Shown here piece after piece: positions 21,697-63,141 of a stretch of 64,000 nt of DNA. The first letter of the stretch is position 1; the number at the start of each line of letters is the position of its first letter. Origin of the DNA: Anaerolineae bacterium (lineage in GTDB: Bacteria > Chloroflexota > Anaerolineae > UBA1429). Position numbers and translations under genes: made by a program. The notes under the pieces were generated by a model. It worked only from the letters and a program-made list of their open reading frames with translations, was not told the origin of the DNA and searched no databases. The DNA is taken from positions 2,109-66,108 of the forward strand of contig DAOTZU010000169.1 in assembly GCA_034433995.1 (NCBI GenBank). The letters are read 5' to 3'.

Positions 21697-21768
21697 ATCT
21701 GATGCGCACATCTTGAAATCCCTCACGGTGTTGCATATGATAGGGGCAACACTTGTGGGGGGAGCGCC

Positions 21769-22899
21769 ATGATGAACCAAAATCTGGTGGTGGAGCCGGT
21801 CCGCTCGCGCCGCGACTTGAGGCGTTTCGTCCTGCTGCCGTGGCGCATCTATCGCCACGACCCGAACTGGGTGCCTCCCTTGATCGGTGAACGGATGGCC
21901 TATCTCACGCCATCCCGCAACCCCTTCCTGCACGATGCCGAGATGGACCTTTTCCTGGCCCGCCGCGCAGGGCGGGTGGTGGGCAGCATCGGCGTCATCC
22001 TGGATGCCCAGGGGCGATCGGAGGGGGTGGCCCGCTTCGGCTTCTTTGAGGTGGAGGAGGATTACGCCGCGGCGGCGGCGCTGTTGGATCGGGCCCGCCG
22101 CTGGGCCAAGGAGCATGGCGCAAGCTGGCTGCGCGGCCCGGCCAATTTCAGCGAATGGGAATGCCCCGGCGTCTTGGTGGAGGGCACCGATTGCCCCCCG
22201 GTGATGTTGGCCGCCCACACCCCCCTCTACTACCGCGAGTTCCTGGAGCGCTACGGCATGGCAAGTTACCAGGATATGTTCGCCTGGCGCGCTTTCCGCG
22301 AGCAGATCGGCGAGGGCTTGGAACACGTGCCCGATATCCTGGCCCATGTGGCCCAGGTGGCCGAGCAACACCACGTTGTCGTGCGCAAGCTGCGTTTCGA
22401 CCACTGGACCGAGGATGTGGATACCGCCTGTTATCTCTTTAACGCCACGTTGCAACATCTGCCCAAGTTTGTGCCCATCTCCCAAGAGGATTTTCGCCAT
22501 TTCGCCGAGCAGGTGCGCCCCCTCCTGGATCCCGACCTGGCCCTCTTTGCCGAGGTGGATGGCAAGGTGGTGGGTTTTTGCGTCTCCTGGCCCGATTTCA
22601 ACCGCGTCCTGATCCATCTCAACGGCAGGCTGTGGCCTTTGGGCTGGGTGAAGCTGTTTTGGTACATGCGCCGGATAGATGTGCTCACCTTCAAGCTCAT
22701 GGGCCTCTTGCCCGAATATCGCCTGCGCGGGATCGATGCGTTGCTCTTTCTCTCCTCCCTGCGGGCGATGATGGCCAAGGGCTATCGCTGGTTGGATGGT
22801 TCCCTCACTTCGGAGTATAATGCGGCTGTCAATCAATTAGCGGCGCGGTTTGGCGCGGAGCGTTACAAACACTATCGTTTGTACCAGATGGCGGTATAG
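21769..22899 (+). CDS. FemAB-like / GNAT-fold acyltransferase (Acetyltransf_6-like), putative
   Basis: 376-aa two-lobed GNAT-like protein; translationally coupled (4-nt gap) to downstream AMP-ligase gene. Confidence 0.55.
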   Translation: MMNQNLVVEPVRSRRDLRRFVLLPWRIYRHDPNWVPPLIGERMAYLTPSRNPFLHDAEMDLFLARRAGRVVGSIGVILDAQGRSEGVARFGFFEVEEDYAAAAALLDRARRWAKEHGASWLRGPANFSEWECPGVLVEGTDCPPVMLAAHTPLYYREFLERYGMASYQDMFAWRAFREQIGEGLEHVPDILAHVAQVAEQHHVVVRKLRFDHWTEDVDTACYLFNATLQHLPKFVPISQEDFRHFAEQVRPLLDPDLALFAEVDGKVVGFCVSWPDFNRVLIHLNGRLWPLGWVKLFWYMRRIDVLTFKLMGLLPEYRLRGIDALLFLSSLRAMMAKGYRWLDGSLTSEYNAAVNQLAARFGAERYKHYRLYQMAV

Positions 22900-28636: not shown

Positions 28637-29031
28637 CCGACGAACCTGCACGTCCTGCGTTGCTGTTGGTGGTGGATGACGAAGAGGGCATGCGCGATAC
28701 CCTGCTGGACATCTTGGAGGCGTATGACTTTGACGTCGACCAGGCCTGTAACGGCCAAGAGGCGGTGGACAAGGTGAAGCGGCGGCCCTATAACCTGGTG
28801 TTGATGGATGTCAAGATGCCGGTGATGGATGGCCTGATGGCGCTCCATCTCATCAGGACGATCCGCCCCAAGCTGCCGGTGATCCTGATGACCGCCTATG
28901 CCGACACCTTCTCGCTGGATCGGGCCAAGGTGGATGGAGCGACGGCGATCTTTGCCAAGCCCCTCAAGCTGGACGATCTGCTGCGCTTGATCCAAAGCCT
29001 TTTGCCCGTGCAGGGCAGGGGAGGCTGCTGA
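28633..29031 (+). CDS. single-domain response regulator (REC)
   Basis: LLVVDDEEGMRD...VLMDVKMP...ILMTAY; 4-nt overlap with upstream kinase. Confidence 0.8.
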   Translation: MTDEPARPALLLVVDDEEGMRDTLLDILEAYDFDVDQACNGQEAVDKVKRRPYNLVLMDVKMPVMDGLMALHLIRTIRPKLPVILMTAYADTFSLDRAKVDGATAIFAKPLKLDDLLRLIQSLLPVQGRGGC

Positions 29032-29717
29032 TGGCCGCCATCCGCGAGCGCCCATTTTTGGTGGATGAGGCTTTCGGGCAGATCATCCGCCTGGTGGGCC
29101 ACGATTTGCGCAACAAGCTCAGCGTGATGCAGAACTCGACGTACTTTTTGAATATGAAGGTGGGCGGCCAGAATGAGAAACTGGCCAAACACCTGGGCAT
29201 TCTGCTGCGCGAGATCAACCAAAGCAACCGCATCGTGCTCAACTTGATGGACCTGGCCGCGCCCAAGACGCCCAAGCCGGCGCTGGTGGAGCTCAACCCG
29301 CTGATCCAGCAGACCCTGGAACAAGTGCCGCCGCCCGAGGGCGCCATCCTCAAGACCATGCTGGCGGCAGAACTGCCTCCCGTGCAGGCTGATGGGGAAC
29401 AGCTGGGCCGGGCGTTGGAGAACATCCTCCTCTTCCAATATGCCGCCCTCAGGCCGGGCGATACCTTGCGGGTGATCTCGCGCGCCGCCGGCGCCAAGGT
29501 TTATGTGGAGCTGGTGGATAGCGGCCCCGGCCTGGCCAAGGAGCAGGTGGCGCGCCTGTTCGAGCTACAGCCGGGGGAGGGGCCTATCGCGTTGCAGATG
29601 GGCCTGGTGGTGGCCCGTCAATTGATCGCCTTGAACAAGGGCCAGCTTGAGGTGGAGAGCCGCCTGGGCCTGGGCACCCGGTTCAGCATCATTTTGCCCC
29701 TCTCCCCTGCGGGATGA
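29031..29717 (+). CDS. cytoplasmic histidine kinase core (HisKA-like + HATPase)
   Basis: LVGHDLRNKLSVM H-box; C-terminal ATPase GxGLG motifs; start overlaps stop of REC gene. Confidence 0.7.
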   Translation: MAAIRERPFLVDEAFGQIIRLVGHDLRNKLSVMQNSTYFLNMKVGGQNEKLAKHLGILLREINQSNRIVLNLMDLAAPKTPKPALVELNPLIQQTLEQVPPPEGAILKTMLAAELPPVQADGEQLGRALENILLFQYAALRPGDTLRVISRAAGAKVYVELVDSGPGLAKEQVARLFELQPGEGPIALQMGLVVARQLIALNKGQLEVESRLGLGTRFSIILPLSPAG

Positions 29718-29858
29718 GGGTCAGCAGCCCTTCCTCTCCCCTGCGGGGCGAGGGGCCAGCCGTTCCTCTCCCCCCTGGGGAGAGGCTAGGTGAGGGGAGG
29801 TCACCCTCCTGCCCGCCCCCTCACCCCACCCTCTCCCCTGCGGGGCGAGGGGCAAAGG
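29717..29858. repeat. G/C-rich palindromic repeat cluster (REP-like), family shared with 60744..60881
   Basis: Two copies of CCTCTCCCCTGCGGGGCGAGGGG, hairpin CCTCTCCCCCCTGGGGAGAGG, GGTGAGGGG / CCCCTCACC inverted repeats. Confidence 0.5.
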
Positions 29859-30989
29859 TCAGGCGGAGCGCAGGAGCTGGCGCACGTGTTCCGGATTATT
29901 GGCCTTGGCCAAGATGTCTTCCAGGGTGACCATGCCGCGACGGTAAAGCTCGATCAGCGCCTGATCTAGGGTCCTCATCCCCAGCCGCTGGCTGGTCTCG
30001 ATGACGCCGGGGAGTTGATGGGTCTTGGCCTCGCGGATGAGATTGCGCACCGCCGGCGAGGCGACCATCACCTCCACCGCTACCACGCGGCCCTTCCCAT
30101 CGGCGGTGGGCAGCAGCGTCTGAGAGAGCACTCCCTCCAGGATCATGGAGAGTTGGATGCGCACCTGTTGTTGCTGGTGCGGCGGAAAGACGTCGATGAT
30201 GCGGTCCACCGTGTTGGCGGCGCCGGCGGTGTGCAGGGTGGAGAGCACCAGGTGGCCCGTCTCGGCGGCGGTGATGGCCGCGGCGATGGTCTCCAGGTCC
30301 CGCATCTCGCCCACCAGGATCACGTCGGGGTCCTGGCGCAAGGCGTGTTTGAGGGCGGAGGCGAAGCTGGGCGTGTCCTCGCCCAGCTCCCGCTGGGTGA
30401 TCATGCTCTGCTTGTCGGTAAAGACGTACTCGATGGGATCTTCGCAGGTGACGATGCGGCAGCGTTGTCGCTCGTTAAGATAGTCAATCATCGCCGCCAG
30501 GGTGGTGGATTTGCCGCTGCCGGTGGGCCCGGTGACGAGGATCAAGCCACGGGGCCGCATGATCAATTCTTTGCACACCGGGGGCAGCAACAAGTCGTCC
30601 AACGTGGGGATGATCATGCTCAGGCGGCGCATGACCATGGTGATGGTGCCCCGTTGTTTGGCCACATTGATGCGAAAGCGGGCCACCCCTTCCAGCTCAT
30701 AGGAGAGATCCAGCTCCAATTCCTGCTCAAAGCGCCGGCGCTGCTCCGGATTGGTCACCTGCTCGTAGAGGCGGGCCAGGTCGGCGGCGCTCAGGGGCTC
30801 GTACTGCGCCTGCACCTGCAGGTCGCCCCGGATGCGCAACACCGGCGGGCTCCCGGCCTTCAGGTGCAGATCTGAGGCGCCCAGGCGCGTCGTCAAGTGC
30901 AAAAGCTCGTCAATGTACACCTCCGCGCTGGGCGTGGGCCGGGCGAAGGTTGTGCGCTGCGTAGGTTGGCGCATGATGGGATCGGACAT
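29859..30989 (-). CDS. pilT: type IV pilus retraction ATPase PilT
   Basis: Walker A GPTGSGKST, PilT-family motifs; start 30989 with GGGGAA upstream. Confidence 0.85.
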   Translation of the reverse strand: MSDPIMRQPTQRTTFARPTPSAEVYIDELLHLTTRLGASDLHLKAGSPPVLRIRGDLQVQAQYEPLSAADLARLYEQVTNPEQRRRFEQELELDLSYELEGVARFRINVAKQRGTITMVMRRLSMIIPTLDDLLLPPVCKELIMRPRGLILVTGPTGSGKSTTLAAMIDYLNERQRCRIVTCEDPIEYVFTDKQSMITQRELGEDTPSFASALKHALRQDPDVILVGEMRDLETIAAAITAAETGHLVLSTLHTAGAANTVDRIIDVFPPHQQQQVRIQLSMILEGVLSQTLLPTADGKGRVVAVEVMVASPAVRNLIREAKTHQLPGVIETSQRLGMRTLDQALIELYRRGMVTLEDILAKANNPEHVRQLLRSA

Positions 30990-31145
30990 GTCCAAATTCC
31001 CCAGATCAGGATGTTGTGCTATCCCCTCGCCTGTAATGGGCCCTGAGGCCAAACAGTCGTTCTCCCCCGCGGTGCGACCAAATCCATGGGCGCGGGACCC
31101 TGCCCGATATATTTGCTCTAGTGAGCCCCTTGTGGGCCGTGGCCT

Positions 31146-31976
31146 CTAACCGGCGAAATACCAGAGCAACAGCCGGCTGCCGTAGAGCATGTACAGGAAG
31201 GTGGTGAGCACCAAAAAGGGCGCAAAAGGGATGGCCGTTTTGCGCCCGGCCAGCCGGGTGATGAGCAGCACGACCCCCACAACCCCTCCCAAAATGAAGG
31301 AGCTGAACACCGCCACCAGCGCCCCCGGAAAGGCGGTGATGAGCCCGGCAAAGGCCGCCAGCTTGACATCGCCGGCCCCCATCCCCTGGGGGGCGATGAG
31401 CCAGATCAGCCAAAAGATGAGAAAGGCGGCCAAGCCTCCCAGCAGCTGGCTCAAGGCCGTCCATTGCGCGATGGACAAACTCGCCATGCCACGGTTGCGT
31501 TGGATCAGCCAAAAGAGGCCCAAGTGGGCGAAGGAAGGCTCCGCCACCAGGGCCTGGATGGGGATGGCCAAAAGGGCCAAGACGATGGCCGGCAAGATGA
31601 CCACGTTCAACACCAATTTGTGCTCCAAGTCGATGACCAGGATGACCAGGAGGAAGCAGGTGTACACCGTGCTCAGCGCCAGTTCCACACTGGGGCCGAA
31701 AAACCAGGCCAGGAAGGCGAAAAGGAGGCCGGTAACCAGTTCCACCAGCAGCACGCGCAAGGGAATGCGCGCCCCGCAGGTGCGGCAACGTCCCCGGAGG
31801 ACGAGATAGCTGACCACAGGCACCAGGTCCCCCGCGGTGAGCTGCCGACCGCACTGGGGACAATGGGAGGGCGGGCGCAGCAGCGATTGCTGGGCGGGCA
31901 GCCGATCCATGACGACGTTCAGGAAGCTGCCCACGATGAGCCCCACCAAGCCATAAAGGGCGCTGAACCACACCAT
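31146..31976 (-). CDS. pilD: prepilin peptidase (A24 family)
   Basis: N-terminal CPxCG Zn-finger-like (HCPQCGRQL...CRTCG), polytopic membrane domain. Confidence 0.85.
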   Translation of the reverse strand: MVWFSALYGLVGLIVGSFLNVVMDRLPAQQSLLRPPSHCPQCGRQLTAGDLVPVVSYLVLRGRCRTCGARIPLRVLLVELVTGLLFAFLAWFFGPSVELALSTVYTCFLLVILVIDLEHKLVLNVVILPAIVLALLAIPIQALVAEPSFAHLGLFWLIQRNRGMASLSIAQWTALSQLLGGLAAFLIFWLIWLIAPQGMGAGDVKLAAFAGLITAFPGALVAVFSSFILGGVVGVVLLITRLAGRKTAIPFAPFLVLTTFLYMLYGSRLLLWYFAG

Positions 31977-31977
31977 G

Positions 31978-32871
31978 CTACACCTTCTTCAGGGCCAGGC
32001 CGAAATTGGTCATGAACTCCATCTCGGGCAATTCCTCCGGGCAGGGAAATGGGGCGACGGCCCGTTCCACGGGGCGGTCAATGGTGGCTTTGAGATAGTC
32101 CCAGGCCTCGCGGGTATTCAGCGAGCGCCCCGCCAAATAGACGGACGTGCTGGGCTGCAACATAGCCTCGCGGTGGCTATCGTTGTAAAAGCGCACCGTC
32201 TGGGTCAGCTCCTCCAACAAGCGTTCGAGCTGGCCCAGGGCATCCAGGCCCTCCTTTTCAAAGGAGAAGGTGCGCATGATGGCCGGCAGATAATCTATGA
32301 CGATGACGATATCCAATAACCCATCCTCCAGGCAGACGATGATCGCCTCCGGTTGGCCTATGGCGCGGATGAGGGCCAACGGTTTGAGGTCCATCACAAA
32401 AGGCGGGATGCCCGCGGCCTGGAGCGCCCGCACCTGGGCCTCAATCATCTCCCTGGGCACCCCCACCACGTAAATGCGCTGTTGGTCGCCCACTCCGGGC
32501 ATGGATTGCCACGCGAGGTAGAGGCTCTCCAAGGAGACGGGCATCTCTTTGCGCGCCTCGCGGGAGATGGCCTCTTCCATCAACGAGGCCTGCAACTTGG
32601 GCAAGGTGAGCAGGCGCGGGATGGAGCGCATGGCGCTCAGGCTCGTGATCACCTGTTTGCGGGGCAGATTGTGGGCGGTAAAGAGGGCATCGAGGATCTT
32701 GCCCATCTCCACGGCGTTGGTGATCAACCCTTCCACCACCAGCCCCGGCGGCAGGTCCACGCTGAGCCAGCGGTCCACCTTGCCGTTGCGCAGGGTGAGC
32801 AGCCGCACATCGGTGGGTTCGATGGCCAGGGTGATCACATCACGGGTTTTGGGCTTGCTGAACAAGGCCAT
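31978..32871 (-). CDS. pilM: type IV pilus assembly protein PilM (actin-like ATPase fold)
   Basis: MALFSKPK...ITLAIEPTDVRLL N-terminus typical of PilM; GGAAGGA RBS. Confidence 0.8.
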   Translation of the reverse strand: MALFSKPKTRDVITLAIEPTDVRLLTLRNGKVDRWLSVDLPPGLVVEGLITNAVEMGKILDALFTAHNLPRKQVITSLSAMRSIPRLLTLPKLQASLMEEAISREARKEMPVSLESLYLAWQSMPGVGDQQRIYVVGVPREMIEAQVRALQAAGIPPFVMDLKPLALIRAIGQPEAIIVCLEDGLLDIVIVIDYLPAIMRTFSFEKEGLDALGQLERLLEELTQTVRFYNDSHREAMLQPSTSVYLAGRSLNTREAWDYLKATIDRPVERAVAPFPCPEELPEMEFMTNFGLALKKV

Positions 32872-32914
32872 GTGCGTTTCCTTCCCCAGGGCTAGGGGCA
32901 TCCCTGCGCCGATT

Positions 32915-34162
32915 TCAAGGGATGCGCAGCCTCATGCCCACGGTGATGCGCGAGCTGGTCAGACCGTTGGCCGCCATGAGGGCCGCCACGGTGGTGCCGA
33001 AGCGTTGGGCGATACTGAACAGGGTATCGCCGGCCTGCACGATATAGATCCTCCCGGGCAGGAGCGGCCCTCCGGGTAGGCCGCCCGGCCACAGCGGCGG
33101 GCTGCCCGCCCAGCCGGCCGGCGGGATGATCAAGCGCTGGTACACATAAAGGCTGTAGGTGGTCAAGCCGTTGGCCAACATGAGCAGGGCGACGGTGGTG
33201 TTGTAGCGTTGGGCGATGGTGTAAAGCGTCTCGCCGGGCATGACCACATGGATCAGGATGTCCGATTGCATGACGGTGGGGATGAACAGCGCCCGGTAAG
33301 CGCGGATGCTGGTGCCAGTCAACCCGTTGGCCGCCATGATGGCCCAGACTGTGGTATTGTACTGGCGGGCGATGGAGTAGAGGGTCTCGCCCGGCTGGAC
33401 GATGTGCACTAATGGCCCCGGTGCCGGGATGCCGCTGGCGGGGATCCAGATCACCGCGCCGGCGCGCAAGAAATAGGTCATCATCCCGTTGGCCTGCATG
33501 ATGGCTTGGACGGTGGTGTTGTAGCGCTTGGCCAGGCTATAGAGCGTATCGCCGGGTTGGACGGTGTAGGTGATGGGCTGGGAGAGGGTGCGTGGCGTGG
33601 GGGTGGGCGTGCTCGGTCCCGGTGTGATGGTGAGGGGGGGCGTGGAGGTGGCGGTGGGCGTGCCCGGCACCGGCGTGGTGCAATACCGCGCCACCAAATC
33701 AAGGCCCATGAGGGCCTCCTCGCCGGTGGGCCTGAGGGACCAAGCCTGGCGGAATTGCTCCAACGACTCGGTGCACTTGTTCTCCGTCAACAGCTTGTAG
33801 CCATAGTTGACATGGGCATAGTAGCGCTTGGCCTGGATGTCGTCATAGTTGGGGTCAATGGCGATGATCTGGCCGATGAGGTTCAACACTTGGGGCCAAT
33901 CCTGGGCGTTCCAGGCGGCGTCGAGCTGCTGCGCCAGGGCTTGCAGGCGCTGCTCGTTGGTGGGCGTGGCCGTGGCCACTTGCAAGGGGTGAAGGGGCAG
34001 TCCCTGGGGCTGCCCTCCCTCGGCTGCCGGCGGTTGGGCGCCGAGGCTCGCCCGCGCCGCCGGCGGCAGCCGGCCGGCCAACGTCCCTTGGGGCAAGAGG
34101 CCGCCGAGAAGGGCCAAGATCAGCAACGCCCTGCCCAAACGTGTCCATCGTCGCCTGCTCAT
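32915..34162 (-). CDS. secreted protein with TPR-like N-region and four LysM peptidoglycan-binding domains
   Basis: Signal peptide; four repeats of YTVQPGDTLYSIAxRYNTTV...ANGL. Confidence 0.75.
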   Translation of the reverse strand: MSRRRWTRLGRALLILALLGGLLPQGTLAGRLPPAARASLGAQPPAAEGGQPQGLPLHPLQVATATPTNEQRLQALAQQLDAAWNAQDWPQVLNLIGQIIAIDPNYDDIQAKRYYAHVNYGYKLLTENKCTESLEQFRQAWSLRPTGEEALMGLDLVARYCTTPVPGTPTATSTPPLTITPGPSTPTPTPRTLSQPITYTVQPGDTLYSLAKRYNTTVQAIMQANGMMTYFLRAGAVIWIPASGIPAPGPLVHIVQPGETLYSIARQYNTTVWAIMAANGLTGTSIRAYRALFIPTVMQSDILIHVVMPGETLYTIAQRYNTTVALLMLANGLTTYSLYVYQRLIIPPAGWAGSPPLWPGGLPGGPLLPGRIYIVQAGDTLFSIAQRFGTTVAALMAANGLTSSRITVGMRLRIP

Positions 34163-34174
34163 CTTTTCGCCCTC

Positions 34175-35317
34175 TTATCTTGGAATCACCAGCCGCTGAC
34201 CCACATATACGGTGGTGCTGCGCAGATCGTTGGCGCGCATGATGGCGCTGACCGTGGTATGGTAGCGGCTGGCGATGGACCACAAGGTATCTCCGGGCCG
34301 CACCACATGGATCAGCACCTCAGGCGTGGGGGTTTTGGTGGGCCCGGCGGTGGGGGAAGGTTTGGCCGTCTGCCCCGGCCGGGTGATGGTGGGCCGCGCC
34401 GCGGGGAGGGTCGGCGTCCCCTGAAGGCCGCGCAACAGCGTCAAGGCCTCCTGGCCGTTGGGCACCAAACGGAGGGCGGCCTCGAAGCGTTGTTGCGCCT
34501 CGGCGCGCCGGCCCTTGGCGGCCAGCTCGCGCCCCCAAGCGAGGTATACCTGATAGAGCTGATACGTCACCTCTTGGTGTTCCGGCTCCTCCTGCAAAAG
34601 GCGCTCCCCCTGGGCCGCCGCGGCCGGCCAATCCTGGGCCGCGATGGCGGCCTGGAAGGATTCCATCAGGCTACCTTGTTGTGCCGGCGTGGCGGTGGGG
34701 GCAGGACTGGGCGTCCCCTGGGCCGGCGCCGGTAGGGTGCCCCGCTCGATGGAATAGACCGCCAGGTCCACATTCCCCGTGAAGGGCCCATCGGGTTTGA
34801 CGATGAGGTTATCCAGCAAAAAGGTCTTGAACGGCCCATCGGCCAGGCGCGCCAAAAAGCGCAACAGCCCCGGCACCTCCCCCCGCGCCTCCACCAGAAA
34901 GCGCTGTACGTTATAGGCCTTCTCGGCCTCCTCCTCCGGCGTCTTGAGCAATGGCTCCAGCCGCGCCAGCCGCACGCCGAAGGTGCTGGCGTATTGGTAA
35001 TACTGGGCCATCTCATCGGCCACCTGTTGCCCGGTGGGCCAACCCGTGGTCAACTGCTGCAGTTGCTGTTGGGCCGCGCCCAGGCGCTGGCGCAGCGTCT
35101 CGGGGGCGGCGGCCTGGACGCGTTGAATCTGGGCGATGGCCTCTTGGGCGGTGTCGTACTCGCTCTGGGCCTCGCTCCGCCGCGAGATGGCACGCACCAG
35201 CGCGCTGAACACCACACCGGAGAGGACCAGTGCCACGATGAGGCTGAGGACGGCTCCCACCACCAGCGGGTTCTTGATCTTGAAGCGCCGAAAAAGATCC
35301 TTGACGTCGGTGTTCAT
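34175..35317 (-). CDS. PilO-like pilus assembly membrane protein with C-terminal TPR-like region and LysM domain
   Basis: Single TM (LVVGAVLSLIVALVL), coiled-coil, PilO-like core, C-terminal LysM (HVVRPGDTLWSIASRYHTTV); ATGA start/stop overlap with upstream giant gene. Confidence 0.5.
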   Translation of the reverse strand: MNTDVKDLFRRFKIKNPLVVGAVLSLIVALVLSGVVFSALVRAISRRSEAQSEYDTAQEAIAQIQRVQAAAPETLRQRLGAAQQQLQQLTTGWPTGQQVADEMAQYYQYASTFGVRLARLEPLLKTPEEEAEKAYNVQRFLVEARGEVPGLLRFLARLADGPFKTFLLDNLIVKPDGPFTGNVDLAVYSIERGTLPAPAQGTPSPAPTATPAQQGSLMESFQAAIAAQDWPAAAAQGERLLQEEPEHQEVTYQLYQVYLAWGRELAAKGRRAEAQQRFEAALRLVPNGQEALTLLRGLQGTPTLPAARPTITRPGQTAKPSPTAGPTKTPTPEVLIHVVRPGDTLWSIASRYHTTVSAIMRANDLRSTTVYVGQRLVIPR

Positions 35318-38300
35318 GGCGTCACCGTCTTGAGCCGCAGTTGCAGGGTGAATTGGATCAGTTGCGCGCCGGGGGCAGCGCCCAAGGGCGCCAATTGGGC
35401 CGCCGGCCGCTCCGGGGGCGCCGCCAGCCCCCACCAGCGCCGCGGGGCCGGCCAGGCTATCCCTTGCAGAAGGGGAGCGCCCTCTCTCCGCCAAGCGACC
35501 GCCTGGGGCTGCCCCAACGGGGCCCAGGCAGTCACTAGCCCCACCTCGTAGGCGCGCAGGTAATATTCCATGGTGGGGCCGAACAGTCCCTTGTTGTAGA
35601 TGGTGATGGTCACCTCGCCGTCGGCGGTCGCCTCAAAGATCACCGCCGAGTTCAGGTAACCCGTGCCGGGCAACGCATCGTCGCTTTGGCAGCCGCTGGG
35701 CTGGCAGTTGTGCACCGGCCCCGTCACCACCAACACGGTATCCACGCCGGGGGTCAGCGGATCGCAGACCAACTGGGTGGGCGAAAAGGGCGTGGTGACG
35801 GTGATGCTGGAACCGGGCTCCAGCCCGTTGCCGCAGGTGACCACCATGTAGCGCCGGCCGGCCTTGACCAAGAGGGTCACCTGGTCCACATCCAGCGCGG
35901 GGTGGAAGGTGTGGCGCTGGGATTCGTTGATGGAAAGATACCGTTTCACCGTGAGGTCCGGCTCGTAGGCGTCACCGCTTTCGGTGCCCAGATCGTCTAC
36001 CTGCAGGACATAGGTCTTGTCCGGCCCGTATTGTCCCTTGTTGGTGACCTGCACCGTCGCCTCAAGGTCGTCCGGGCCGTCGTTCTGCAGCTCCACGTAG
36101 GAGGAGAGATCGCCCGGTATCTTGTCGTCATTGCTGAGGTGGGTTGTGCCCATGTCCACCGTCAACATGGTATCCACGCCGGGGGCCAGATCTCGAGTGT
36201 AGATGCGATAGCGGCGTTCCGCCTTGGCGGTGAAGTAAACCCGATCCACGTCGCCGGGCGGATAAAAGCTCCGCGCCTGCCCCGCGCCGATGGCGATGGG
36301 CACCGGCGCAAGATCATCCACTTCGTAAGCATCGCCGGAGCCGACATCCGTCACCCGCAGGACGTAGGTGCGGTTGGGGCCAAAGAGGCCTTTGTTGGTC
36401 ACGGTGACAAAGGCGGGGGCGTCGGCGCCCGTTTGATTTTGAAACACAACCCTTGAGCTGAGATCCTGGGGCGAGCGATCGTCGCTGGTCCAGACCTGGC
36501 TGCCCAGGCGCACGGTGAGGACGCTATCGGCGCCCGTGGCCAGGGCGGTGGTCTCCACGGCGTAGGAATAGCCGGCTTTGGCGGTAAAGACCACCTGGTC
36601 CACATCGCCCGCGGGGCAGAAGGTGCGTGGCTGCTCCTCGTTCACCCCCATCACGCGGGCCACGGCATCGTCCGGTTCAAAGGCATCGCCGCAATCGAGG
36701 GTTGGAGTGGAGCTGGGGCCGGGCGTCGCCGTCGGTCCAGGGGTGAACAGCGGTGTGGGCGTAGCGGTGGTGCGGGTCAAATCGGGCGTAGGGGTGCGCA
36801 CCACACCCAAGAACTCGACCACCAGGGTGTAGGTCTTGTCCGGCCCATATTGGCCGTTGTTGGTCACCAAGACGGTGGCTTGGACGTCGCTAGCCCCGTC
36901 GTTCTGCAACTCCACATAAGATGAGAGATCGCCCGGCTGGCGGTCGTCGTTGCGGAGCTGGAGGGCGCCCATATTCACCGTGAGGACCGTATCCACGCCG
37001 GGGGCCAGGCCCTGGGTATAGATGCGGTAGCGGTGGTTGACCTTGGCCACAAAATAGACCCGATCCACATCGCCGGGCGGGTAAAAACTGCGCGCCTGGC
37101 CGATGCCAAAGGCGATGGGCACGGGGGAGAGGTCATCCACCTCGTAGGCATCGCCGGTGCCCGCGTCGGACACCTTGAACTTGTAGGTGCGATTTTGGCC
37201 AAAAAGGCCCTTGTTGGTGATGGTGATAAAGGCGGGAGCATCGCGGCCCGATTGGTTCTGGAAGATGATCTTGGAGCTGAGATCCTGGGGCGAGCGGTCG
37301 TCGCTGGTCCAGGATTGACCGCCCAAGAGCACGGTGACCACCGTATCCACACCGGGGGCCAGGTCATAGGTTTCCACGATGTAGGAATAGCCGGCCTTGG
37401 CGGTAAAGACGGCCTTGTCCACATCCCCGTTGGGACAAAAGTTGCGTCCCTGTTCCTGGTTCACCACCGCCAGGCGGCCCACGATATCATCCGGCTCGTA
37501 ACTATCGCCGCAAAAGACGGTGGGCGTGGGGCCGGGGGTAAGGGGCTGGCGGGTGAGATCGCGGGTGGGCGTGCCGGCCAGCTCGCGCAGCGTGAGCCAA
37601 TATTCCTTATCCACCCCATACTCGCCCCGGTTGGTGAGGGTGGCGATGGCCACACCGTCGCGGGAGGGGGTGAGGATCACCCGCGAGGCATAATCGCCGG
37701 GGGCGATGTCATCGTTCCGGAGGGTTTGCCCCTCCACCAGCACCTCCAACACCGTATCCACGCCCAAGGTGAGGCTGTACGTCTTGACCTCGTACACCCG
37801 CCCCGCCTTGACGGGGAAATAGACCCGGTCTACATCGCCCAAGGGGAAGAAGGTATGGCGCTGGCCCTCGTAAGGCGAGAGGGGCCGCGGGGTCTGGTCA
37901 TCCGGCTCGTAGGCATCACCCCCCGCCTCCAAGAGTTGCAGGGTGTAGGTTTTATCCACGCCATAGAGGCCCTTGTTGGTGATGGTGACCTGGGCCGTCC
38001 CATCGGCGTTGGCCTTGAAGAGGAGGCGCGAGGAGGGATCGCCGGAGGCGGCGTCATCGTTCTGCTGGGTGACGCCATCCACCTGCACCACGATGACCGT
38101 ATCCACCCCCAGGGCCAAGTTGGTGGTGCGCAATTCGTAGGCGTGCCCCGCCTTGACGGGGAAATAGACCCGGTCCACATCGCCGGCGGGGTAGAAAGAG
38201 CGGGCCTGGGCCTCGCCGATGGCGATGGGTTTGGGGGTTTGGTCGTCGCGCTCGTACGCGTCGCCGGTGGCCTCATAGACCGCCAGGGTGTACCACTTGT

Positions 38301-39294: not shown

Positions 39295-39385
39295 AGGTTC
39301 CTTTGCGCAGCAAGGGCCAGAGCCGAGACTCTGGCCCCATTGTAACATATCTTGCTGTAGCTGTCATCCGTGGCAATGGGGGCGT

Positions 39386-41742: not shown

Positions 41743-41755
41743 GGGAAGATCTCCC

Positions 41756-42675: not shown

Positions 42676-42802
42676 GGGAACCACCTTCTTGCTTATAAAA
42701 CCACCCGCAAAAACGCCGGTTTTTGTCGTCCAGCGCCCGCGAGGGGCTGGGCACCCGGCGGACCGCAAGACCTGTGCCCGCCGGATGCGCCCCAAAAGCG
42801 GG

Positions 42803-44005: not shown

Positions 44006-44019
44006 GGTCACCCACTCCC

Positions 44020-59443: not shown

Positions 59444-60601
59444 TTATGCCGGCATCACCACCTCGCAGTAACGCCGGCTCTCGGCGGATTCCCTGGCCCA
59501 CAGGCAGGTGAGGGCGCTGAGGATGCCCGCGGCCATGGGGCTGCGAGACGGGGTGCCATCGCGCATGGCCCGCAGGAAATCCAGGCACAGCTCCCGGTCG
59601 CCGCCGAAATGGGGCATCTCGCCGGTGAACTCGATGGTCTCCACGCTGGGCGTGTGGTGCTTGTAGACGCGGATGACGTTCTCGTACCAATCGAAATGAA
59701 TGGTCCCCCGATAGCCGTACAGCCGCGCCCCGCGCCGCGCTGCCTTGAAACGGGCAAAAAAGTTCTGCGTGTAGCTGGCCTGGGCGCCGTTCTCGTATTC
59801 CAGAAGGCAGCTCCCCAAATCCTCGTTGAGGATCCCCTTGGCGAATAGGCACATCCGCTGCGACTGGGTATCCACCTTCTCCCCCTGATAGCGCTGATAA
59901 AAGAGGTTGAAGGGGCTTTCGGGGCACGTTTCCCACCGTTCACAATCCACGCAATGCAGGTCAAAGGGCATCTCGCCGCCATAGATCCGTTGGGCCTTCA
60001 TGGCGCAGAGCAGCCGGGGCCGCTGATTCAAAAGGTAGGCGATGTAATCCAGATCGTGGGTGGCCTTTTGCAAAAAGAGGCCGCCCACCTGCTCATAGTT
60101 CCGATACCAGCTGTAGTAGTAGACATCGCCATAGGGCACGTCGTTAAAGGCGATGACCTGTTCCACCGTGCCGATGGTATCCGCCTCCAGCAGTTGCTTC
60201 ACCGTCTGCACGATGGGCGAGAGGCGCAAAGGGAACGAGACCACCGTGGGCGCGGGGTAATCGCGAAAGGCCGCGTCCAACCGTTTGACCTGCTCAAAGG
60301 TGATGGCCACAGGTTTCTCCAAAAAGAGAGGCAATTTGTAGGGCGCCACCTTGCAGGCCATCTCGGTGTGCAGGTAACAGCGGGTGCCCACCATCACCCC
60401 GTCCAGTTTCTCCTTTTCCAGCATCTCCTCAGGGGTGGCGTAAAAGACCGTATCCTGCAGGAAAGGATCGTTGGCCGCCTGCAATTCTGGCGCGCGGGGA
60501 TCCACAATGGCCGCCACGCGATAGGGGATGCCGTAAACGGCCAACGCTTTGGCCATGCTGGAAACGCGCCCACCGTAGCCGATGATGCCGATCTGCAACA
60601 T
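59444..60601 (-). CDS. Gfo/Idh/MocA-family NAD(P)-dependent oxidoreductase
   Basis: MLQIGIIGYGGRVSSMA Rossmann N-terminus; GAGGTG RBS before ATG 60601. Confidence 0.8.
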   Translation of the reverse strand: MLQIGIIGYGGRVSSMAKALAVYGIPYRVAAIVDPRAPELQAANDPFLQDTVFYATPEEMLEKEKLDGVMVGTRCYLHTEMACKVAPYKLPLFLEKPVAITFEQVKRLDAAFRDYPAPTVVSFPLRLSPIVQTVKQLLEADTIGTVEQVIAFNDVPYGDVYYYSWYRNYEQVGGLFLQKATHDLDYIAYLLNQRPRLLCAMKAQRIYGGEMPFDLHCVDCERWETCPESPFNLFYQRYQGEKVDTQSQRMCLFAKGILNEDLGSCLLEYENGAQASYTQNFFARFKAARRGARLYGYRGTIHFDWYENVIRVYKHHTPSVETIEFTGEMPHFGGDRELCLDFLRAMRDGTPSRSPMAAGILSALTCLWARESAESRRYCEVVMPA

Positions 60602-60743
60602 CTTGTTCACCTCTGCTTCGTGATAGCCCCGCCCACAGGGAGGCCGACTCCGCCGATTATAGGCCTTGCCCCAGGATGGCGCAAACGGCCCAGGTTGACA
60701 GTTATCGCCCCTGGGCTTACCATAGAAAGAGGCGATACTGCCC

Positions 60744-60881
60744 CCCTCTCCCCCGTGGGGAGAGGGATGGGGTGAGGGGGGAAGTGCCGGACCTTGGTTT
60801 CACCCTCACCCCACCTCTCCCTGAAGGGAGAGGCGCTGCGGCCCTCCCCTCTCCCTGTGGGGAGAGGGACGGGGTGAGGGG
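60744..60881. repeat. REP-like G/C-rich palindromic repeats (two direct 36-bp units flanking an inverted related unit)
   Basis: CCCTCTCCCCCGTGGGGAGAGGGATGGGGTGAGGGG (60744) and CCCCTCTCCCTGTGGGGAGAGGGACGGGGTGAGGGG (60847); middle CACCCTCACCCCACCTCTCCCTGAAGGGAGAGG matches 29815-29840. Confidence 0.5.
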
Positions 60882-60927
60882 ATGGCCCTGTTGACGGATG
60901 CGGCGTTGCTGTGGGAAGGTGAGGACG

Positions 60928-63141
60928 ATGCGGAAAAAACAGTTCCGGCAGGTCAAGCCCAGCGGAGAACAGGAAAATCTCCAAGAAACGTTGACGGCCA
61001 TGCGTGGCGACACCTTCCGGGTGATCCTGCTCCTCAGCTTGGTGGCCACGGTGGGCTGGTATCTCTGGGAGAGGATACGGGTGCCGGCCAATGACGCCGT
61101 GGATGGCGGGCTCTTTATCGTCCCGGTGTTGCTCTGGCTGTGGATCGTCTATCAATTGTTGGATGAGCAGCCGCGGGCGGCGCAGCTCGTCTATCTCCTG
61201 GGCGGGTTGGTCTTGTTGAGCGGGCACATCTGGTTATTCCAATCGTCGCGGGCGCTGTATCTTTATGGCGTGTTGGCCTTGATCGCCGTGGTCATTTGGG
61301 AGCCTTGGTCCGGCTTGGCCATGGCGGGCCTGGGGATCTTGACGGCCTATCTCTTGCTTTCCTTCGGCGGGACGCGCCTGGGGTCTCCTGCCCAAGTGAC
61401 TTTAATGGCGCTGAACACCTTGGCGGTGGTGGTGGTGGGTTGGACCTTGGCCCAGAACTTTGCCTTGGCCGTCAGTTGGTCCCTCACCAGCTATGCCAAG
61501 GCCAGGGATAGCTTGGCGGCGGTGCAGGCCCGGCGGGCGGAGGTGATCCACCTCAACCAGGAGCTGAGCCGCGCCCGCGAGCGCCTGGAGCGGGCCAACG
61601 CCGCCCTGGTGCGCGCGTGGCGCGCCGCCGAGGAGGCCGAGCGCCGCCAAAAACAGATGACGGCTTACATCAGCCACGAGCTGCGCACGCCCCTTAACCT
61701 CATCGTCGGCTTTAGCGAGATGTTGGTCACCTCACCCGAGACCTACGGCCTGGAGCAGCTCCCGCCCAAGGTGCGCCGCGACCTCAACGCCATTTACCGC
61801 AGCGCCGAGCAGGTGGCGGCGCTGGTGGATGACGTCTTGGACATGGCCAGCGTGGATGCTGGCCATCTCGCCCTCATGCGCGAGCCTTCGGACCTTTGGC
61901 AGGTGGTGCTGGAGGCCATCTCCATGGTGCGAGATTATGTGGAGACCAAGAACCTGGCTCTGCGCGTGGAGCGCCAGGGCGAGATCCCCACGCTCCTCTT
62001 GGACCGGCTGCGCATCCGCCAGGTGTTGCTTAACCTGCTCATCAACGCGGCGCGCTTTACCCTGGAGGGGGCCATCATAGTGCGAGTGATGCGCGAGCCG
62101 GACCAAGTGCGGGTGCAGGTGCACGACACGGGCAAAGGGATCGCCCCGGAGGATCTGGACAAGATCTTTCAAGAGTTTCACGCCTCATCGGAGGCCCCTT
62201 CGTGGTGGGGCAAGGGCACCGGCCTGGGGCTGCCCCTCAGCCGGCGCTTGGTGCGCCTCCACGGCGGCGAGATGGGCGTGGAAAGCACGCTGGGCCGAGG
62301 CTCCACCTTCTGGTTCACCCTGCCCCTGGAGATGGCCACTGACCAGGGCCAGGTGACCATGGTCTACACCCAGCCCAGGGTGGCCCGCTCCGAGCCTCAA
62401 CCCAGCTTGGTGATCTATCAGGAGGACGAGGTGGCGGTGCACCGCCTGCGGCGCTGGCTGGAAGGTTACCACCTGGTGAGCGCACCCTCATGGGAGGAGG
62501 CCCGACAACGGGCGGAGGAGCTGCGCGCCGTGGCCCTCCTGGCCGACGCCCGAGCGCCCCTGCCTGAAGAGCCCGCTGCCTTGCCCATCATCCAATGTCC
62601 TTTGCCCAGCACCCGCCAATGGGCCCAGGCCCTGGGCGTGGAGGCCTATTTGGCCAAGCCGGTGCGCAATGCCTACTTGCTGCAAGTTTTGCGCGAGGTG
62701 ATCCCGCAAGGGGAAAAGGTGTTGGTGGTGGATGACGATGAGCGCTTTGTGCAGTTGGTGAGCCGGGTGTTGGAGACGGCCTCGCCGCCCTATCGCGTGG
62801 CGGTGGCCTATAACGGCGAGGAGGCCCTACAAAAGATGGCCACGGAGCGGCCCGACGTGGTGTTGCTCGACCTGGCTTTGCCCCAGGTGGATGGCTACCA
62901 GGTGTTGAAGATCAAAGCAGCAGATCCCCAGATGGCCCCCATCCCGGTGATCGTCATCTCGGCGCCGCCGGTGGAGGAGGAGAGCGCCCCCTTGGGCGAG
63001 ACCTTTATCGTGCGGCAAAAGGAGGGGCTCTATCTGGATCAGATCAGCCATCTGGTGCAGAGCGTGCTGACGGTGCTTTCCCCTGGGGATGGGAGCGCTA
63101 GCCCCAGCGATGCAGGGCCTCGCGAAGCATCTCCTGGGTGA
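60928..63141 (+). CDS. membrane-bound hybrid histidine kinase with two C-terminal receiver-like domains
   Basis: About 6 TM helices; H-box ISHELRTPLN; HATPase; C-terminal REC (VLVVDDDERFV...VLLDLALPQVDG). Confidence 0.75.
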   Translation: MRKKQFRQVKPSGEQENLQETLTAMRGDTFRVILLLSLVATVGWYLWERIRVPANDAVDGGLFIVPVLLWLWIVYQLLDEQPRAAQLVYLLGGLVLLSGHIWLFQSSRALYLYGVLALIAVVIWEPWSGLAMAGLGILTAYLLLSFGGTRLGSPAQVTLMALNTLAVVVVGWTLAQNFALAVSWSLTSYAKARDSLAAVQARRAEVIHLNQELSRARERLERANAALVRAWRAAEEAERRQKQMTAYISHELRTPLNLIVGFSEMLVTSPETYGLEQLPPKVRRDLNAIYRSAEQVAALVDDVLDMASVDAGHLALMREPSDLWQVVLEAISMVRDYVETKNLALRVERQGEIPTLLLDRLRIRQVLLNLLINAARFTLEGAIIVRVMREPDQVRVQVHDTGKGIAPEDLDKIFQEFHASSEAPSWWGKGTGLGLPLSRRLVRLHGGEMGVESTLGRGSTFWFTLPLEMATDQGQVTMVYTQPRVARSEPQPSLVIYQEDEVAVHRLRRWLEGYHLVSAPSWEEARQRAEELRAVALLADARAPLPEEPAALPIIQCPLPSTRQWAQALGVEAYLAKPVRNAYLLQVLREVIPQGEKVLVVDDDERFVQLVSRVLETASPPYRVAVAYNGEEALQKMATERPDVVLLDLALPQVDGYQVLKIKAADPQMAPIPVIVISAPPVEEESAPLGETFIVRQKEGLYLDQISHLVQSVLTVLSPGDGSASPSDAGPREASPG

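What the first reader, a model, noticed from the sequence alone, without database searches (positions are those of the whole stretch)
29717..29858. G/C-rich REP-like palindromic repeat family, locus 1
A 140-bp gap between convergent genes (kinase and pilT) is made almost entirely of nested inverted repeats. Words are CCTCTCCCC / GGGGAGAGG and GGTGAGGGG / CCCCTCACC. The stretch CACCCTCACCCCACCTCTCCC recurs at 60801-60821 and CTCTCCCC-N3-GGGGAGAGG hairpins recur at 60744 and 60847. This is a dispersed repetitive extragenic palindrome family not described for this kind of genome as far as I can tell. Likely functions are terminators, mRNA stabilisers or targets of a REP-associated tyrosine transposase.
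Basis: seen in the sequence. Interest (0 to 1): 0.5.

Follow-up and report, generated by a model that had tools for sequence, protein, structure and literature searches.

The report
Known BoxC-type G/C-rich palindromic repeats
The two intergenic clusters of G/C-rich hairpins are real, but they are copies of the "BoxC / triplex-motif" repeat known from E. coli since 1992, found here in an uncultured Anaerolineae bacterium, and its function is still unknown.

Summary
Seven units of one repeat family sit in two intergenic loci, 29696-29852 and 60743-60881, and nowhere else in the 64 kb. They occur far above chance.

Each unit is a 9-10 bp hairpin (CCCTCNCCC / GGGNGAGGG). Most units also carry a third block (GGGTGAGGG). 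At both loci two units face each other as an inverted pair.

The family is not undescribed. It fits the published BoxC / PIT / TMECO pattern, also described as a G-quadruplex-hairpin switch. The window unit aligns by blastn to 5391 of 5426 E. coli genomes.

ArgG places the window in an uncultured Anaerolineae (Chloroflexota). Collection scans find the same unit in many phyla and in viral contigs.

The REP/RAYT reading fails. There is no GTAG tag and no Y1 transposase in the window, and seven RAYT loci elsewhere carry unrelated GTAG palindromes. The terminator reading is weak, because no unit has a U tail and locus 2 lies in a divergent gap.

A bias towards gene 3' ends does hold across genomes.

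Most likely this is a non-autonomous, structure-prone interspersed repeat. Its mode of spread and its function are unknown.

Verdict: a new member of a known kind, of low to moderate interest.

The parts
29696..29722 (+). Unit a. Hairpin only: CCCCTCTCCCC-TGC-GGGATGAGGG. It overlaps the last codons of the kinase ORF and supplies its TGA stop (29715-29717).
   Evidence: E 0.0011
29733..29755 (+). Unit b. Hairpin CCTCTCCCC-TGC-GGGGCGAGGGG with a central T.C mismatch. It has the same 24-mer as unit d.
29765..29797 (+). Unit c. Three blocks: CCTCTCCCC-CCT-GGGGAGAGG-CTA-GGTGAGGGG. It is the left member of the inverted pair c/d.
   Evidence: I10, I12; E 2e-6
29798..29815 (.). Spacer, about 18 nt, between the facing third blocks of units c and d.
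29816..29852 (-). Unit d, on the minus strand: CCCTCGCCC-CGCAG-GGGAGAGGG-TG-GGGTGAGGG. It fits the TMECO pattern except that the second loop is 2 nt. It holds a canonical G-quadruplex motif.
60743..60781 (+). Unit e. Strict TMECO match: CCCTCTCCC-CCGTG-GGGAGAGGG-ATG-GGGTGAGGG. It is the left member of the inverted pair e/f and holds a G-quadruplex motif.
   Evidence: (E 4e-7)
60782..60801 (.). Spacer, about 20 nt, between units e and f.
60802..60833 (-). Unit f, a degenerate three-block unit. On the + strand it reads ACCCTCACCCC-A-CCTCTCCC-TGAA-GGGAGAGG.
   Evidence: E 2e-5
60845..60881 (+). Unit g. Strict TMECO match, solitary: CCCTCTCCC-TGTG-GGGAGAGGG-ACG-GGGTGAGGG. It holds a G-quadruplex motif.
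   Evidence: (E 1e-7)
60695..60723 (+). Context. A sigma-70-like site, TTGACA-17-TACCAT, lies just upstream of the locus-2 units. If it is real, the units form the 5' leader of the hybrid histidine kinase gene.
   Evidence: consensus match only
29031..29717 (+). Context. Histidine kinase ORF (HisKA + HATPase_c) whose 3' end runs into unit a.
29859..31052 (-). Context. PilT/PilU-family ATPase, convergent with the kinase. Its true start is probably about 20-40 codons inside this ORF.
59444..60610 (-). Context. Oxidoreductase ORF weakly similar to inositol 2-dehydrogenase. It is the left, divergent neighbour of locus 2.
60898..63141 (+). Context. Hybrid histidine kinase, the right neighbour of locus 2. 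An alternative in-frame ATG at 60928 follows a Shine-Dalgarno-like GGAAGGTGAGG.

Best explanation
Identity (shown). These are copies of the BoxC / PIT / TMECO family of short interspersed G/C-rich repeats, here in an uncultured Anaerolineae genome.

Anatomy (shown). A unit is about 35-40 nt: a C block (CCCTCNCCC), a 3-6 nt loop and a complementary G block (GGGNGAGGG). Usually a second G block (GGGTGAGGG) follows 2-3 nt downstream. At both loci two units face each other across an 18-20 nt spacer, and extra tandem or solitary units are attached.

Mechanism (inferred). The element is non-coding and non-autonomous.
- Single strands can fold in mutually exclusive ways. The C block can pair with either G block. 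The two G blocks can form a G-quadruplex or, with the duplex, an intrastrand triplex. An inverted pair can form a long stem or cruciform.
- I take these structures, forming transiently during replication or transcription, to drive slippage, gene conversion and indels. That would amplify units locally and make the loci unstable.
- Copies persist mainly where they do little harm, at gene 3' ends.
- In transcripts, the kinase and pilT mRNAs would end in very stable hairpins, and the hybrid-kinase leader would be highly structured. This could act as a 3'-exonuclease barrier or a translational brake, but not as a canonical terminator.
- How copies reach new loci and new phyla is unknown.
For: Identity:
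- The window holds 2 strict TMECO matches and 1 match with a 2-nt second loop. The pattern is from PMC4666352.
- blastn of unit e hits 5391 of 5426 E. coli genomes, with a median of 11 places each, at 86-88% identity over 41-43 nt. All listed places are unannotated. One is the araA-araD spacer, CCCCCCTCGCCCCTTTGGGGAGAGGGCCGGGGTGAGGGGG.
- The inverted-pair layout matches E. coli, where 5 pairs occur among 23 copies. It recurs as the consensus of longer elements in an Enterobacteriaceae MAG and in Xanthobacteraceae.

Host: ArgG is 85-88% identical to proteins named 'MAG: Anaerolineae/Chloroflexi bacterium'.

Spread:
- The exact 22-mer is found in at least 111 genome loci across Proteobacteria, Terriglobia, Chloroflexota, Polyangiaceae and others.
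- Strict units occur in a complete Dehalococcoidia chromosome.
- At least 120 viral contigs carry the hairpin.
- Control: 514 kb of pilT-relative metagenome loci hold 0 strict units.

Structure:
- Both loci fold better than shuffles, with z from -3.4 to -3.9.
- Alternative C-block/G-block pairings and short-loop G-quadruplex motifs are present.

Instability:
- All 6 metagenome contigs carrying the kinase end 45-210 nt past its stop, or cycle through the array.
- A linked 3-substitution haplotype makes the b-c spacer resemble the a-b spacer, as gene conversion would.
- In E. coli one unit is a discrete 56-nt indel at araA-araD.

No mobility gene:
- None in the window.
- No transposase family among the 25 families shared most often by 110 flanking ORFs.
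Against: - The copy number in the source genome could not be measured. Only two loci are seen in 64 kb, and a relative's syntenic 21 kb holds none.
- The instability evidence at this locus is thin. It is one shared haplotype, so the Fisher p is inflated. The cycling contigs may be assembly artefacts.
- In E. coli, in vivo footprinting did not show a stable triplex (PMC4666352).
- Structure-driven slippage explains local arrays. It does not explain dispersal to distant loci, nor near-identical units in unrelated phyla. That points to an unidentified trans-acting factor or to horizontal transfer.
- Why the T/A interruptions in the blocks are conserved is not explained by structure alone.
Confidence: 0.7

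Rival explanations
1. REP/REPIN system. The units are the cognate repeats of a REP-associated tyrosine transposase (RAYT), which cuts and re-joins them as single-stranded hairpins.
For: - The units are short imperfect palindromes in inverted doublets, like REPINs.
- They show a 3'-end location bias like REPs (PMC3733652).
- A central stem mismatch is common (units b and d).
- The RAYT-like 'TIRYT' genes of Di Nocera 2013 are flanked by inverted repeats sharing GGGGWSAS. Both G blocks fit that motif. This lead was not tested.
Against: - No unpaired GTAG or CGTC tag flanks the hairpins. The only GT[AG]G matches lie in loops.
- No Y1_Tnp among about 46 window ORFs.
- E. coli RayT against all six-frame ORFs of about 320 fetched loci found one RAYT (L168) and one weak Y1-like ORF (L319). 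Both have their own GTAG palindromes.
- Five plasmid RAYT loci, including a Chloroflexota plasmid, show GTAG REPs, no BoxC-profile hit and no GGGGWSAS.
- The E. coli study found no mobility genes near the motif.
Confidence: 0.07
2. A miniature inverted-repeat element mobilised in trans by a transposase of another or unknown class, spreading between phyla by horizontal transfer.
For: - The inverted pair of about 35-nt units around a spacer looks like terminal inverted repeats.
- Lineage-specific longer consensus elements exist.
- Distribution is patchy between relatives (PMC4666352).
- One unit is present or absent as a discrete indel in E. coli.
- The element is found on viral contigs.
Against: - There is no clean target-site duplication at the one filled/empty site examined.
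- No transposase family is among the 25 most shared by 110 neighbouring ORFs.
- Only 17 of 114 seed units have a complete inverted partner within 130 nt.
Confidence: 0.13
3. Functional RNA 3'-end elements. The units act as bidirectional terminators or mRNA-stabilising hairpins, selected at the ends of the kinase and pilT transcripts.
For: - Very stable predicted hairpins on both strands.
- Locus 1 is a convergent gap.
- There is a cross-genome excess in convergent gaps and no strand bias in tandem gaps, 19 against 17.
- REPs are known to stabilise upstream mRNA (established knowledge).
Against: - No T tract follows any unit.
- Locus 2 lies between divergent genes, in a probable 5' leader.
- PIT elements showed no terminator or promoter activity in E. 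coli.
- Structure-only selection would not conserve the sequence across phyla.
- Units occur in frame inside a mutY-like gene.
Confidence: 0.12
4. A regulatory DNA or RNA switch between G-quadruplex or triplex and hairpin, tuning neighbouring genes.
For: - Three of the 12 canonical G-quadruplex motifs in the window lie in the units, and those three have the shortest loops.
- Triplex formation in vitro is reported in PMC4666352, and G-quadruplex and hairpin formation in PMC5100583.
- The locus-2 units sit between a promoter-like site and a start codon.
Against: - With the C block present, the hairpin is strongly favoured over the G-quadruplex: -28 against -13 kcal/mol in the RNA model.
- No stable triplex was seen in vivo, and neighbouring genes show no common function or fixed distance in E. 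coli.
- Neighbours in 110 loci are functionally miscellaneous.
Confidence: 0.08

Closest known systems
BoxC repeat = PIT (potential intrastrand triplex) element = TMECO triplex motif of E. coli. References as cited in PMC4666352: Bergler 1992; Hoyne et al. 2000; Hoyne & Maher 2002; Holder et al. 2015.
   Same: - Same three-block sequence pattern, met exactly by units e and g.
- 86-88% blastn identity to E. coli copies.
- Intergenic location.
- Frequent inverted pairs.
- No linked mobility gene.
- Loci that vary between strains.
   Different: - The host is an uncultured Anaerolineae (Chloroflexota). The 2015 survey reported the strict pattern in 262 proteobacterial genomes.
- Locus 1 carries a short tandem array (a-b-c, 32-34 nt period) of hairpin-only units.
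- One unit overlaps a gene's stop codon.
- The second loop is 2 nt in unit d, and unit c is shifted in register.
HPGQ1/HPGQ2 'G-quadruplex-hairpin-duplex switch' motifs of E. coli (Kaplan et al. 2016, PMC5100583)
   Same: These are the same sequences under another name: four G runs with short loops, preceded by a complementary C-rich block about 3 nt upstream.
   Different: That work proposes a regulatory role from motif enrichment and CD spectra. Nothing in this window shows regulation.
REP / BIME / REPIN elements with RAYT transposases (Di Nocera et al. 2013, PMC3733652; REPIN concept from own knowledge, Bertels & Rainey 2011)
   Same: - Short extragenic imperfect palindromes.
- Inverted doublets.
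- Clusters.
- Preference for gene 3' ends.
- They break short-read assemblies.
   Different: - No GTAG or CGTC tag.
- No RAYT nearby.
- RAYT loci examined, including two from Chloroflexota, carry unrelated GTAG palindromes.
- The third G block has no counterpart in REPs.
Inverted-repeat families flanking RAYT-like 'TIRYT' genes that share a GGGGWSAS motif (Di Nocera et al. 2013)
   Same: Both G blocks (GGGGAGAG, GGGGTGAG) fit GGGGWSAS. Some of those inverted repeats are described as 'double palindromic' and occur in dimers or clusters.
   Different: The resemblance is read from an 8-nt consensus only. The sequences are in a figure that is not held, so identity with BoxC units is untested.

Membership tests
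BoxC / PIT / TMECO | Three-block pattern CCCTCNCCC-N3-6-GGGNGAGGG-N3-GGGNGAGGG, with one mismatch tolerated | tested here: met
   strict matches at 60744-60778(+) and 60847-60880(+); 29818-29851(-) fits with a 2-nt second loop. Units a, b, c and f are partial or degenerate.
BoxC / PIT / TMECO | Direct sequence similarity to E. coli copies | tested here: met
   5391 of 5426 E. coli genomes, median 11 places, 86-88% identity over 41-43 nt, best E 1e-4. One search shows the araA-araD copy.
BoxC / PIT / TMECO | Intergenic location | tested here: met
   Both clusters fill intergenic gaps. The only exception is unit a, which overlaps the last codons and the stop of the kinase ORF.
BoxC / PIT / TMECO | Units often paired in inverted orientation | tested here: met
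   Pairs c/d and e/f. The same layout is reported in E. coli and appears in two lineage consensus sequences.
BoxC / PIT / TMECO | Many dispersed copies per genome | tested here: inconclusive
   Two loci 31 kb apart in 64 kb. Six metagenome contigs break in the repeat.
BoxC / PIT / TMECO | No associated transposase or integrase | tested here: met
   None in the window ORFs. None among the 25 Pfam families most shared by 110 flanking ORFs in other genomes.
BoxC / PIT / TMECO | The G-rich strand folds into an intrastrand triplex or G-quadruplex in vitro | not testable with these tools
   Only motif logic and an RNA energy model are available. The published CD/NMR work is for E. coli sequences.
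BoxC / PIT / TMECO | Raised local sequence variability between strains | tested here: inconclusive
   The difference rate is 0.020 inside the repeat and 0.0055 outside it, but one shared haplotype dominates. Contigs cycle or end in the array.
REP / REPIN with RAYT | Unpaired GTAG (or CGTC) tag at one end of the palindrome | tested here: not met
   no GT[AG]G in locus 1. In locus 2 the only matches are inside hairpin loops.
REP / REPIN with RAYT | A RAYT (Y1/HUH) gene flanked by the same repeats | tested here: not met
   No Y1_Tnp in the window. Seven RAYT-like loci elsewhere carry other GTAG palindromes. The rest of the source genome could not be examined.
REP / REPIN with RAYT | Short imperfect palindromes in inverted doublets, mostly downstream of genes | tested here: met
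   for the doublets. for 34 convergent against 6 divergent gaps.
Intrinsic (Rho-independent) terminator | G+C-rich stem-loop followed directly by a T/U tract | tested here: not met
   No terminator-like site lies in either repeat cluster. The only hit, 29670-29686, is inside the kinase ORF.
CRISPR array | Identical repeats separated by unique spacers of similar length, usually with cas genes | tested here: not met
   32-nt units lie 32-34 nt apart start to start, so there are no spacers. Orientations are mixed. No cas families.
Any Rfam RNA family | A match at the family's gathering score | tested here: not met
   One search gave 0 matches in the window. Searches gave only sub-threshold generic hairpin (miRNA-type) matches.

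The most novel reading that the evidence does not exclude
The same module of about 35 nt (C block, G block, G block), with the same T/A interruptions, occurs from E. coli to Anaerolineae, a complete Dehalococcoidia chromosome, Terriglobia, Polyangiaceae and viral contigs. It often forms an inverted pair resembling terminal inverted repeats. Structure alone would not fix the sequence this tightly. The module may therefore be the substrate of an undiscovered, very widespread trans-acting system. Candidates are an HUH/Y1-type enzyme of the TIRYT kind, whose flanking repeats share GGGGWSAS, or a universal nucleic-acid-binding host factor. The element would then be a pan-bacterial mobile element hidden in plain sight.
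Probability: 0.15. Interest if true: 0.6.

Novelty: new member of a known kind. Interest (0 to 1): 0.28.

Why it matters
- For this window, the result removes a false lead. The repeat is not a new REP family and not a RAYT target. It belongs to a family first noted in 1992, whose function has stayed unknown through several experimental studies.
- The strict motif, and even an exact 22-mer, reach well beyond the Proteobacteria in which the 2015 survey reported it. This sharpens the open question of what conserves and spreads the element.
- These units break short-read metagenome assemblies. All six contigs that reach locus 1 end there. They can also supply stop codons or in-frame insertions to genes. 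Both points matter for MAG quality and annotation.

Tried and rejected
- Rfam at gathering score and at E-value threshold on both loci: only generic hairpin noise.
- tRNA/tmRNA scan: none.
- Genome-wide count in the source organism: not possible.
  - The broad hairpin pattern saturated viral contigs at 120 loci.
- Syntenic empty site. The one metagenome scan with PilT gave relatives of at most 77% identity whose pilT neighbourhoods are not syntenic.
- Exact look-ups of PilT with two alternative starts, PilM, the hybrid kinase, the 504-aa regulator and P0007 were not on record.
- Literature search for the sample accessions found nothing. One keyword search was swamped by unrelated 'BoxCar' hits.
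- tblastn of window proteins against the titled genome loci gave no taxonomic hint. ArgG names did.
- Pfam survey of 110 flanking ORFs: no mobility family among those shared.
- RAYT link: rejected.
- A GTAG palindrome found in an Anaerolineae relative is absent from the window.
- Coding reading. The ORF 60676-60894 crosses the units, but units occur in both orientations and in different frames, so I reject it by inspection.
- CRISPR and terminator readings: rejected.
Full report
WHAT IS THERE

The 141-nt gap 29718-29858 lies between a histidine kinase ORF and a convergent PilT ATPase ORF.
- The kinase is 29031-29717 (+), with HisKA and HATPase_c domains.
- PilT is 29859-31052 (-), TIGR01420 at 480.8 bits against a cut-off of 319.

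The gap is almost entirely repeat. The repeat finder gives four direct copies of a ~32-nt unit and 14 inverted-repeat pairs.

A second cluster lies at 60743-60881.

The words are far above chance:
- CCTCTCCCC: 11 against 1.42 expected, with 8 in the two loci.
- The hairpin pattern CCTCTCCC-N2-6-GGGAGAGG: 4 against 0.00 expected.
- GGGGTGAGGGG with up to 1 mismatch: 14 against 5.07 expected.

A profile of the seven units finds nothing else in the window. All hits with E<0.1 fall in 29695-29856 or 60742-60885. The remaining word hits are coding.

- Unit a begins inside the kinase ORF and supplies its TGA stop codon (29715-29717).
- The quoted 21-mer differs from its locus-1 counterpart by one extra C.
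- Locus 2 lies between divergent ORFs.

ANATOMY

When the seven units are aligned, each shows the same plan:
- a C block, CC(C)TCNCCC(C);
- a 3-5 nt loop;
- a complementary G block, GGGNGAGG(G).

In five of the seven, a second G block (GG(G)GTGAGGG) follows 2-3 nt downstream.

Units b and d share an identical 24-mer. Its stem has a central T.C mismatch.

Locus 1 reads a-b-c in tandem with a 32-34 nt period. Unit d then follows, inverted, so that the third blocks of c and d face each other across about 18 nt.

Locus 2 reads e, then an inverted f across about 20 nt, then a solitary g.

Both loci fold much better than dinucleotide shuffles, on either strand: z = -3.4, -3.4 and -3.9. The inverted pairs form long stems.

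Within one unit the C block can pair with either G block. The two G blocks together form a canonical short-loop G-quadruplex motif. Three of the 12 such motifs in the window are these units.

IDENTITY

A full-text search for the two G-block words led to two papers:
- Holder et al. 2015 (PMC4666352);
- Kaplan et al. 2016 (PMC5100583).

Holder et al. define the E. coli triplex motif 'TMECO' as CCCTCNCCC-N3-6-GGGNGAGGG-N3-GGGNGAGGG. It was earlier called BoxC, and later PIT. They report the following:
- 23 copies in MG1655, all intergenic and in both orientations;
- five inverted pairs among those copies;
- no common neighbouring function;
- no promoter or terminator activity (citing Hoyne & Maher 2002);
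- no nearby mobility genes;
- triplex formation in vitro, but no stable triplex in vivo;
- raised variability of the loci between strains.

Kaplan et al. describe the same sequences as a G-quadruplex-hairpin-duplex switch.

In the window, units e and g match the pattern exactly. Unit d matches with a 2-nt second loop.

Independently, blastn of unit e hits 5391 of 5426 complete E. coli genomes. The median is 11 places per genome, at 86-88% identity over 41-43 nt, and all listed places are unannotated. One is the araA-araD spacer, which reads CCCCCCTCGCCCCTTTGGGGAGAGGGCCGGGGTGAGGGGG.

The family is therefore known. Rfam holds nothing for it.

HOST AND DISTRIBUTION

ArgG from the window is 85-88% identical to proteins that NCBI names 'MAG: Anaerolineae bacterium' or 'Chloroflexi bacterium'. 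The window is therefore from an uncultured Anaerolineae. Its source is an NCBI contig of 66,169 nt.

By my arithmetic, under equal base frequencies less than one hit is expected in 596 Gb. The loci come from:
- Entero-, Alpha-, Beta- and Gammaproteobacteria, including cultured isolates;
- Terriglobia;
- Chloroflexota (Thermoflexus, Anaerolinea, Dehalococcoidia);
- Polyangiaceae, Dormiibacterota and contigs labelled Patescibacteria.

In 73 of 114 cases a CCCTCACCC block lies within 60 nt upstream.

Strict three-block units occur in Chloroflexota-labelled loci, including a complete Dehalococcoidia chromosome.

The hairpin pattern also saturated the viral-contig scan, at 120 or more loci with GC from 33 to 73%.

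As a control, 80 metagenome loci around PilT relatives (514 kb) hold no strict unit. A close relative's syntenic arg cluster (21 kb) holds none either. Distribution is thus wide but patchy, as reported for E. coli and Salmonella.

In different lineages the core is embedded in different longer consensus elements. In an Enterobacteriaceae MAG and in Xanthobacteraceae these are again inverted pairs of units around a spacer of about 35 nt.

(a) Location bias. With a simple GC3-based gene caller on the 111 genome loci, elements with both neighbours called fall as follows:
- 34 in convergent gaps;
- 36 in tandem gaps;
- 6 in divergent gaps.

The background gaps of the same loci are 113 convergent, 226 tandem and 74 divergent. 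The binomial p for convergent against divergent is 0.001. Tandem gaps show no strand bias, 19 against 17. The predicted preference for gene 3' ends therefore holds, with the caveat that the gene calls are crude.

(b) RAYT.
- There is no GTAG or CGTC tag.
- No Y1 transposase is found among about 46 window ORFs.
- E. coli RayT searched against all six-frame ORFs of about 320 fetched loci finds one RAYT (L168) and one weak Y1-like ORF in an Anaerolineae relative (L319). Both are bracketed by their own GTAG palindromes.
- Five RAYT loci on plasmids, one from Chloroflexota, likewise carry GTAG REPs. They give no hit to the unit profile.
- Among 110 ORFs flanking elements in other genomes, no transposase family is among the 25 most shared.

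(c) Terminator.
- No T tract follows any unit.
- Locus 2 sits between divergent genes, just downstream of a TTGACA-17-TACCAT site.
- The E. coli tests were negative.

POPULATION DATA

Six independent metagenome contigs, 99-99.9% identical to the window, reach locus 1 from the kinase side. All of them end 45-210 nt past the stop codon.

Two of them run from unit d back into unit c. This is either a longer array or an assembler loop.

Four contigs share three linked substitutions. These turn the b-c spacer into a near copy of the a-b spacer, as gene conversion would. They are one haplotype and not independent events, so the enrichment statistic is inflated.

In E. coli, the araA-araD copy is present or absent as a discrete 56-nt indel. 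It lies next to a variable REP array and has no clean target duplication.

HOW IT MOST LIKELY WORKS

Shown:
- membership of the family;
- the unit and pair anatomy;
- strong folding potential;
- the absence of a linked mobility gene;
- the 3'-end bias;
- the assembly breaks.

Inferred:
- The element is a non-autonomous, structure-prone repeat.
- Its transient hairpin, cruciform, G-quadruplex or triplex forms promote slippage, conversion and indels.
- It survives where it is least harmful.
- It gives the neighbouring transcripts very stable terminal or leader hairpins.

Not explained:
- dispersal to new loci;
- the near-identity of units across phyla.

For these two points I keep an unidentified trans-acting enzyme as the main rival. 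One lead was not testable here. The RAYT-like 'TIRYT' genes of Di Nocera et al. 2013 are flanked by inverted repeats sharing GGGGWSAS, which both G blocks fit.

VERDICT

It is wrong on novelty and on RAYT, and the terminator reading is weak.

This is a new host lineage for a known repeat family of unknown function. Interest is low to moderate.

Noticed in passing
L001-L005 and L318 against window 29691-29858: All six metagenome contigs that carry the kinase gene stop 45-210 nt after its stop codon. Two of them loop from unit d back into unit c. The repeat is a systematic breakpoint for short-read assemblies.
   Followed up: partly
window 29696-29722: The kinase ORF ends inside repeat unit a. 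Its last residues (..PLSPAG) and its TGA stop are repeat-encoded, and the HATPase_c match ends at residue 225 of 228.
   Followed up: partly
L167:4300-6200 and L168:1-860: A MutY-like ORF reads in frame through a BoxC-type unit (..LLPQSPRPAGERVRERGEKNE..) in two related contigs. This looks like an in-frame insertion of about 13 residues in a DNA-repair gene. I judged it by reading the translation and did not run a family search.
   Followed up: partly
L168:825-1460: A clear RAYT gene (E 2e-50 to E. coli RayT) is flanked by GTAG-tagged inverted palindromes, GTAGGATGGGTTGAGCGCAGCGATACCCATC. These are unrelated to the BoxC unit 580 nt upstream. The contig is labelled Patescibacteria but closely resembles a Gallionella locus (L167), so the label is doubtful.
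   Followed up: partly
L319:4519-4957: An Anaerolineae relative carries two copies of a perfect GTAG-tagged palindrome, GGTAGGGGCACGACATGTCGTGCCCCTACC, around a weak Y1_Tnp-like ORF (E 5e-4). This looks like a genuine REP/RAYT-type system in this class. The palindrome is absent from the window.
   Followed up: partly
L317, L321-L323 (E. coli araA-araD spacer): The spacer is polymorphic among E. coli genomes. It holds one to three REP doublets, with or without a 56-nt segment carrying one BoxC unit.
   Followed up: partly
L126, L138, L157, L164, L171, L187, L194, L233; and the Xanthobacteraceae loci: In some genomes the core unit is part of a longer conserved element of about 100-130 nt, built as an inverted pair of units around a spacer of about 35 nt. 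In Terriglobia an extra small hairpin separates the CCCTCACCC block from the main hairpin.
   Followed up: partly
L239 and L240, about 130-200 nt after the pilT homologue: Unrelated metagenome contigs (PilT 63% identical) carry a BoxC-like unit between pilT and a type IV pilin gene: ccctcaccc..CCCCTCTCCCC-N8-GGGGAGAGGGG.
   Followed up: no
window 60695-60723 and 60898/60928: A promoter-like TTGACA-17-TACCAT lies directly upstream of the locus-2 units. The hybrid kinase may start at the in-frame ATG at 60928, which follows GGAAGGTGAGG, rather than at 60898.
   Followed up: no
window 29859-46768: A large type IV pilus gene cluster: PilT, prepilin peptidase, PilM, LysM proteins, a 1344-aa protein with no family hit (35314-39348), pilin-like N_methyl proteins, PilC, and a PilB with an N-terminal receiver domain.
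   Followed up: no
window 50032-51657 and 51791-54061: Two fused ORFs: a DNA methylase fused to an Mrr-like restriction endonuclease domain, and next to it a CofD-like domain fused to a phosphoglucomutase.
   Followed up: no
window 19354-22836 and 46831-48891: Long ORFs of 1160 and 686 aa have no NCBIfam hit at E 1e-10. The first has a lower third-position GC (0.69) than its neighbours (about 0.8-0.85).
   Followed up: no
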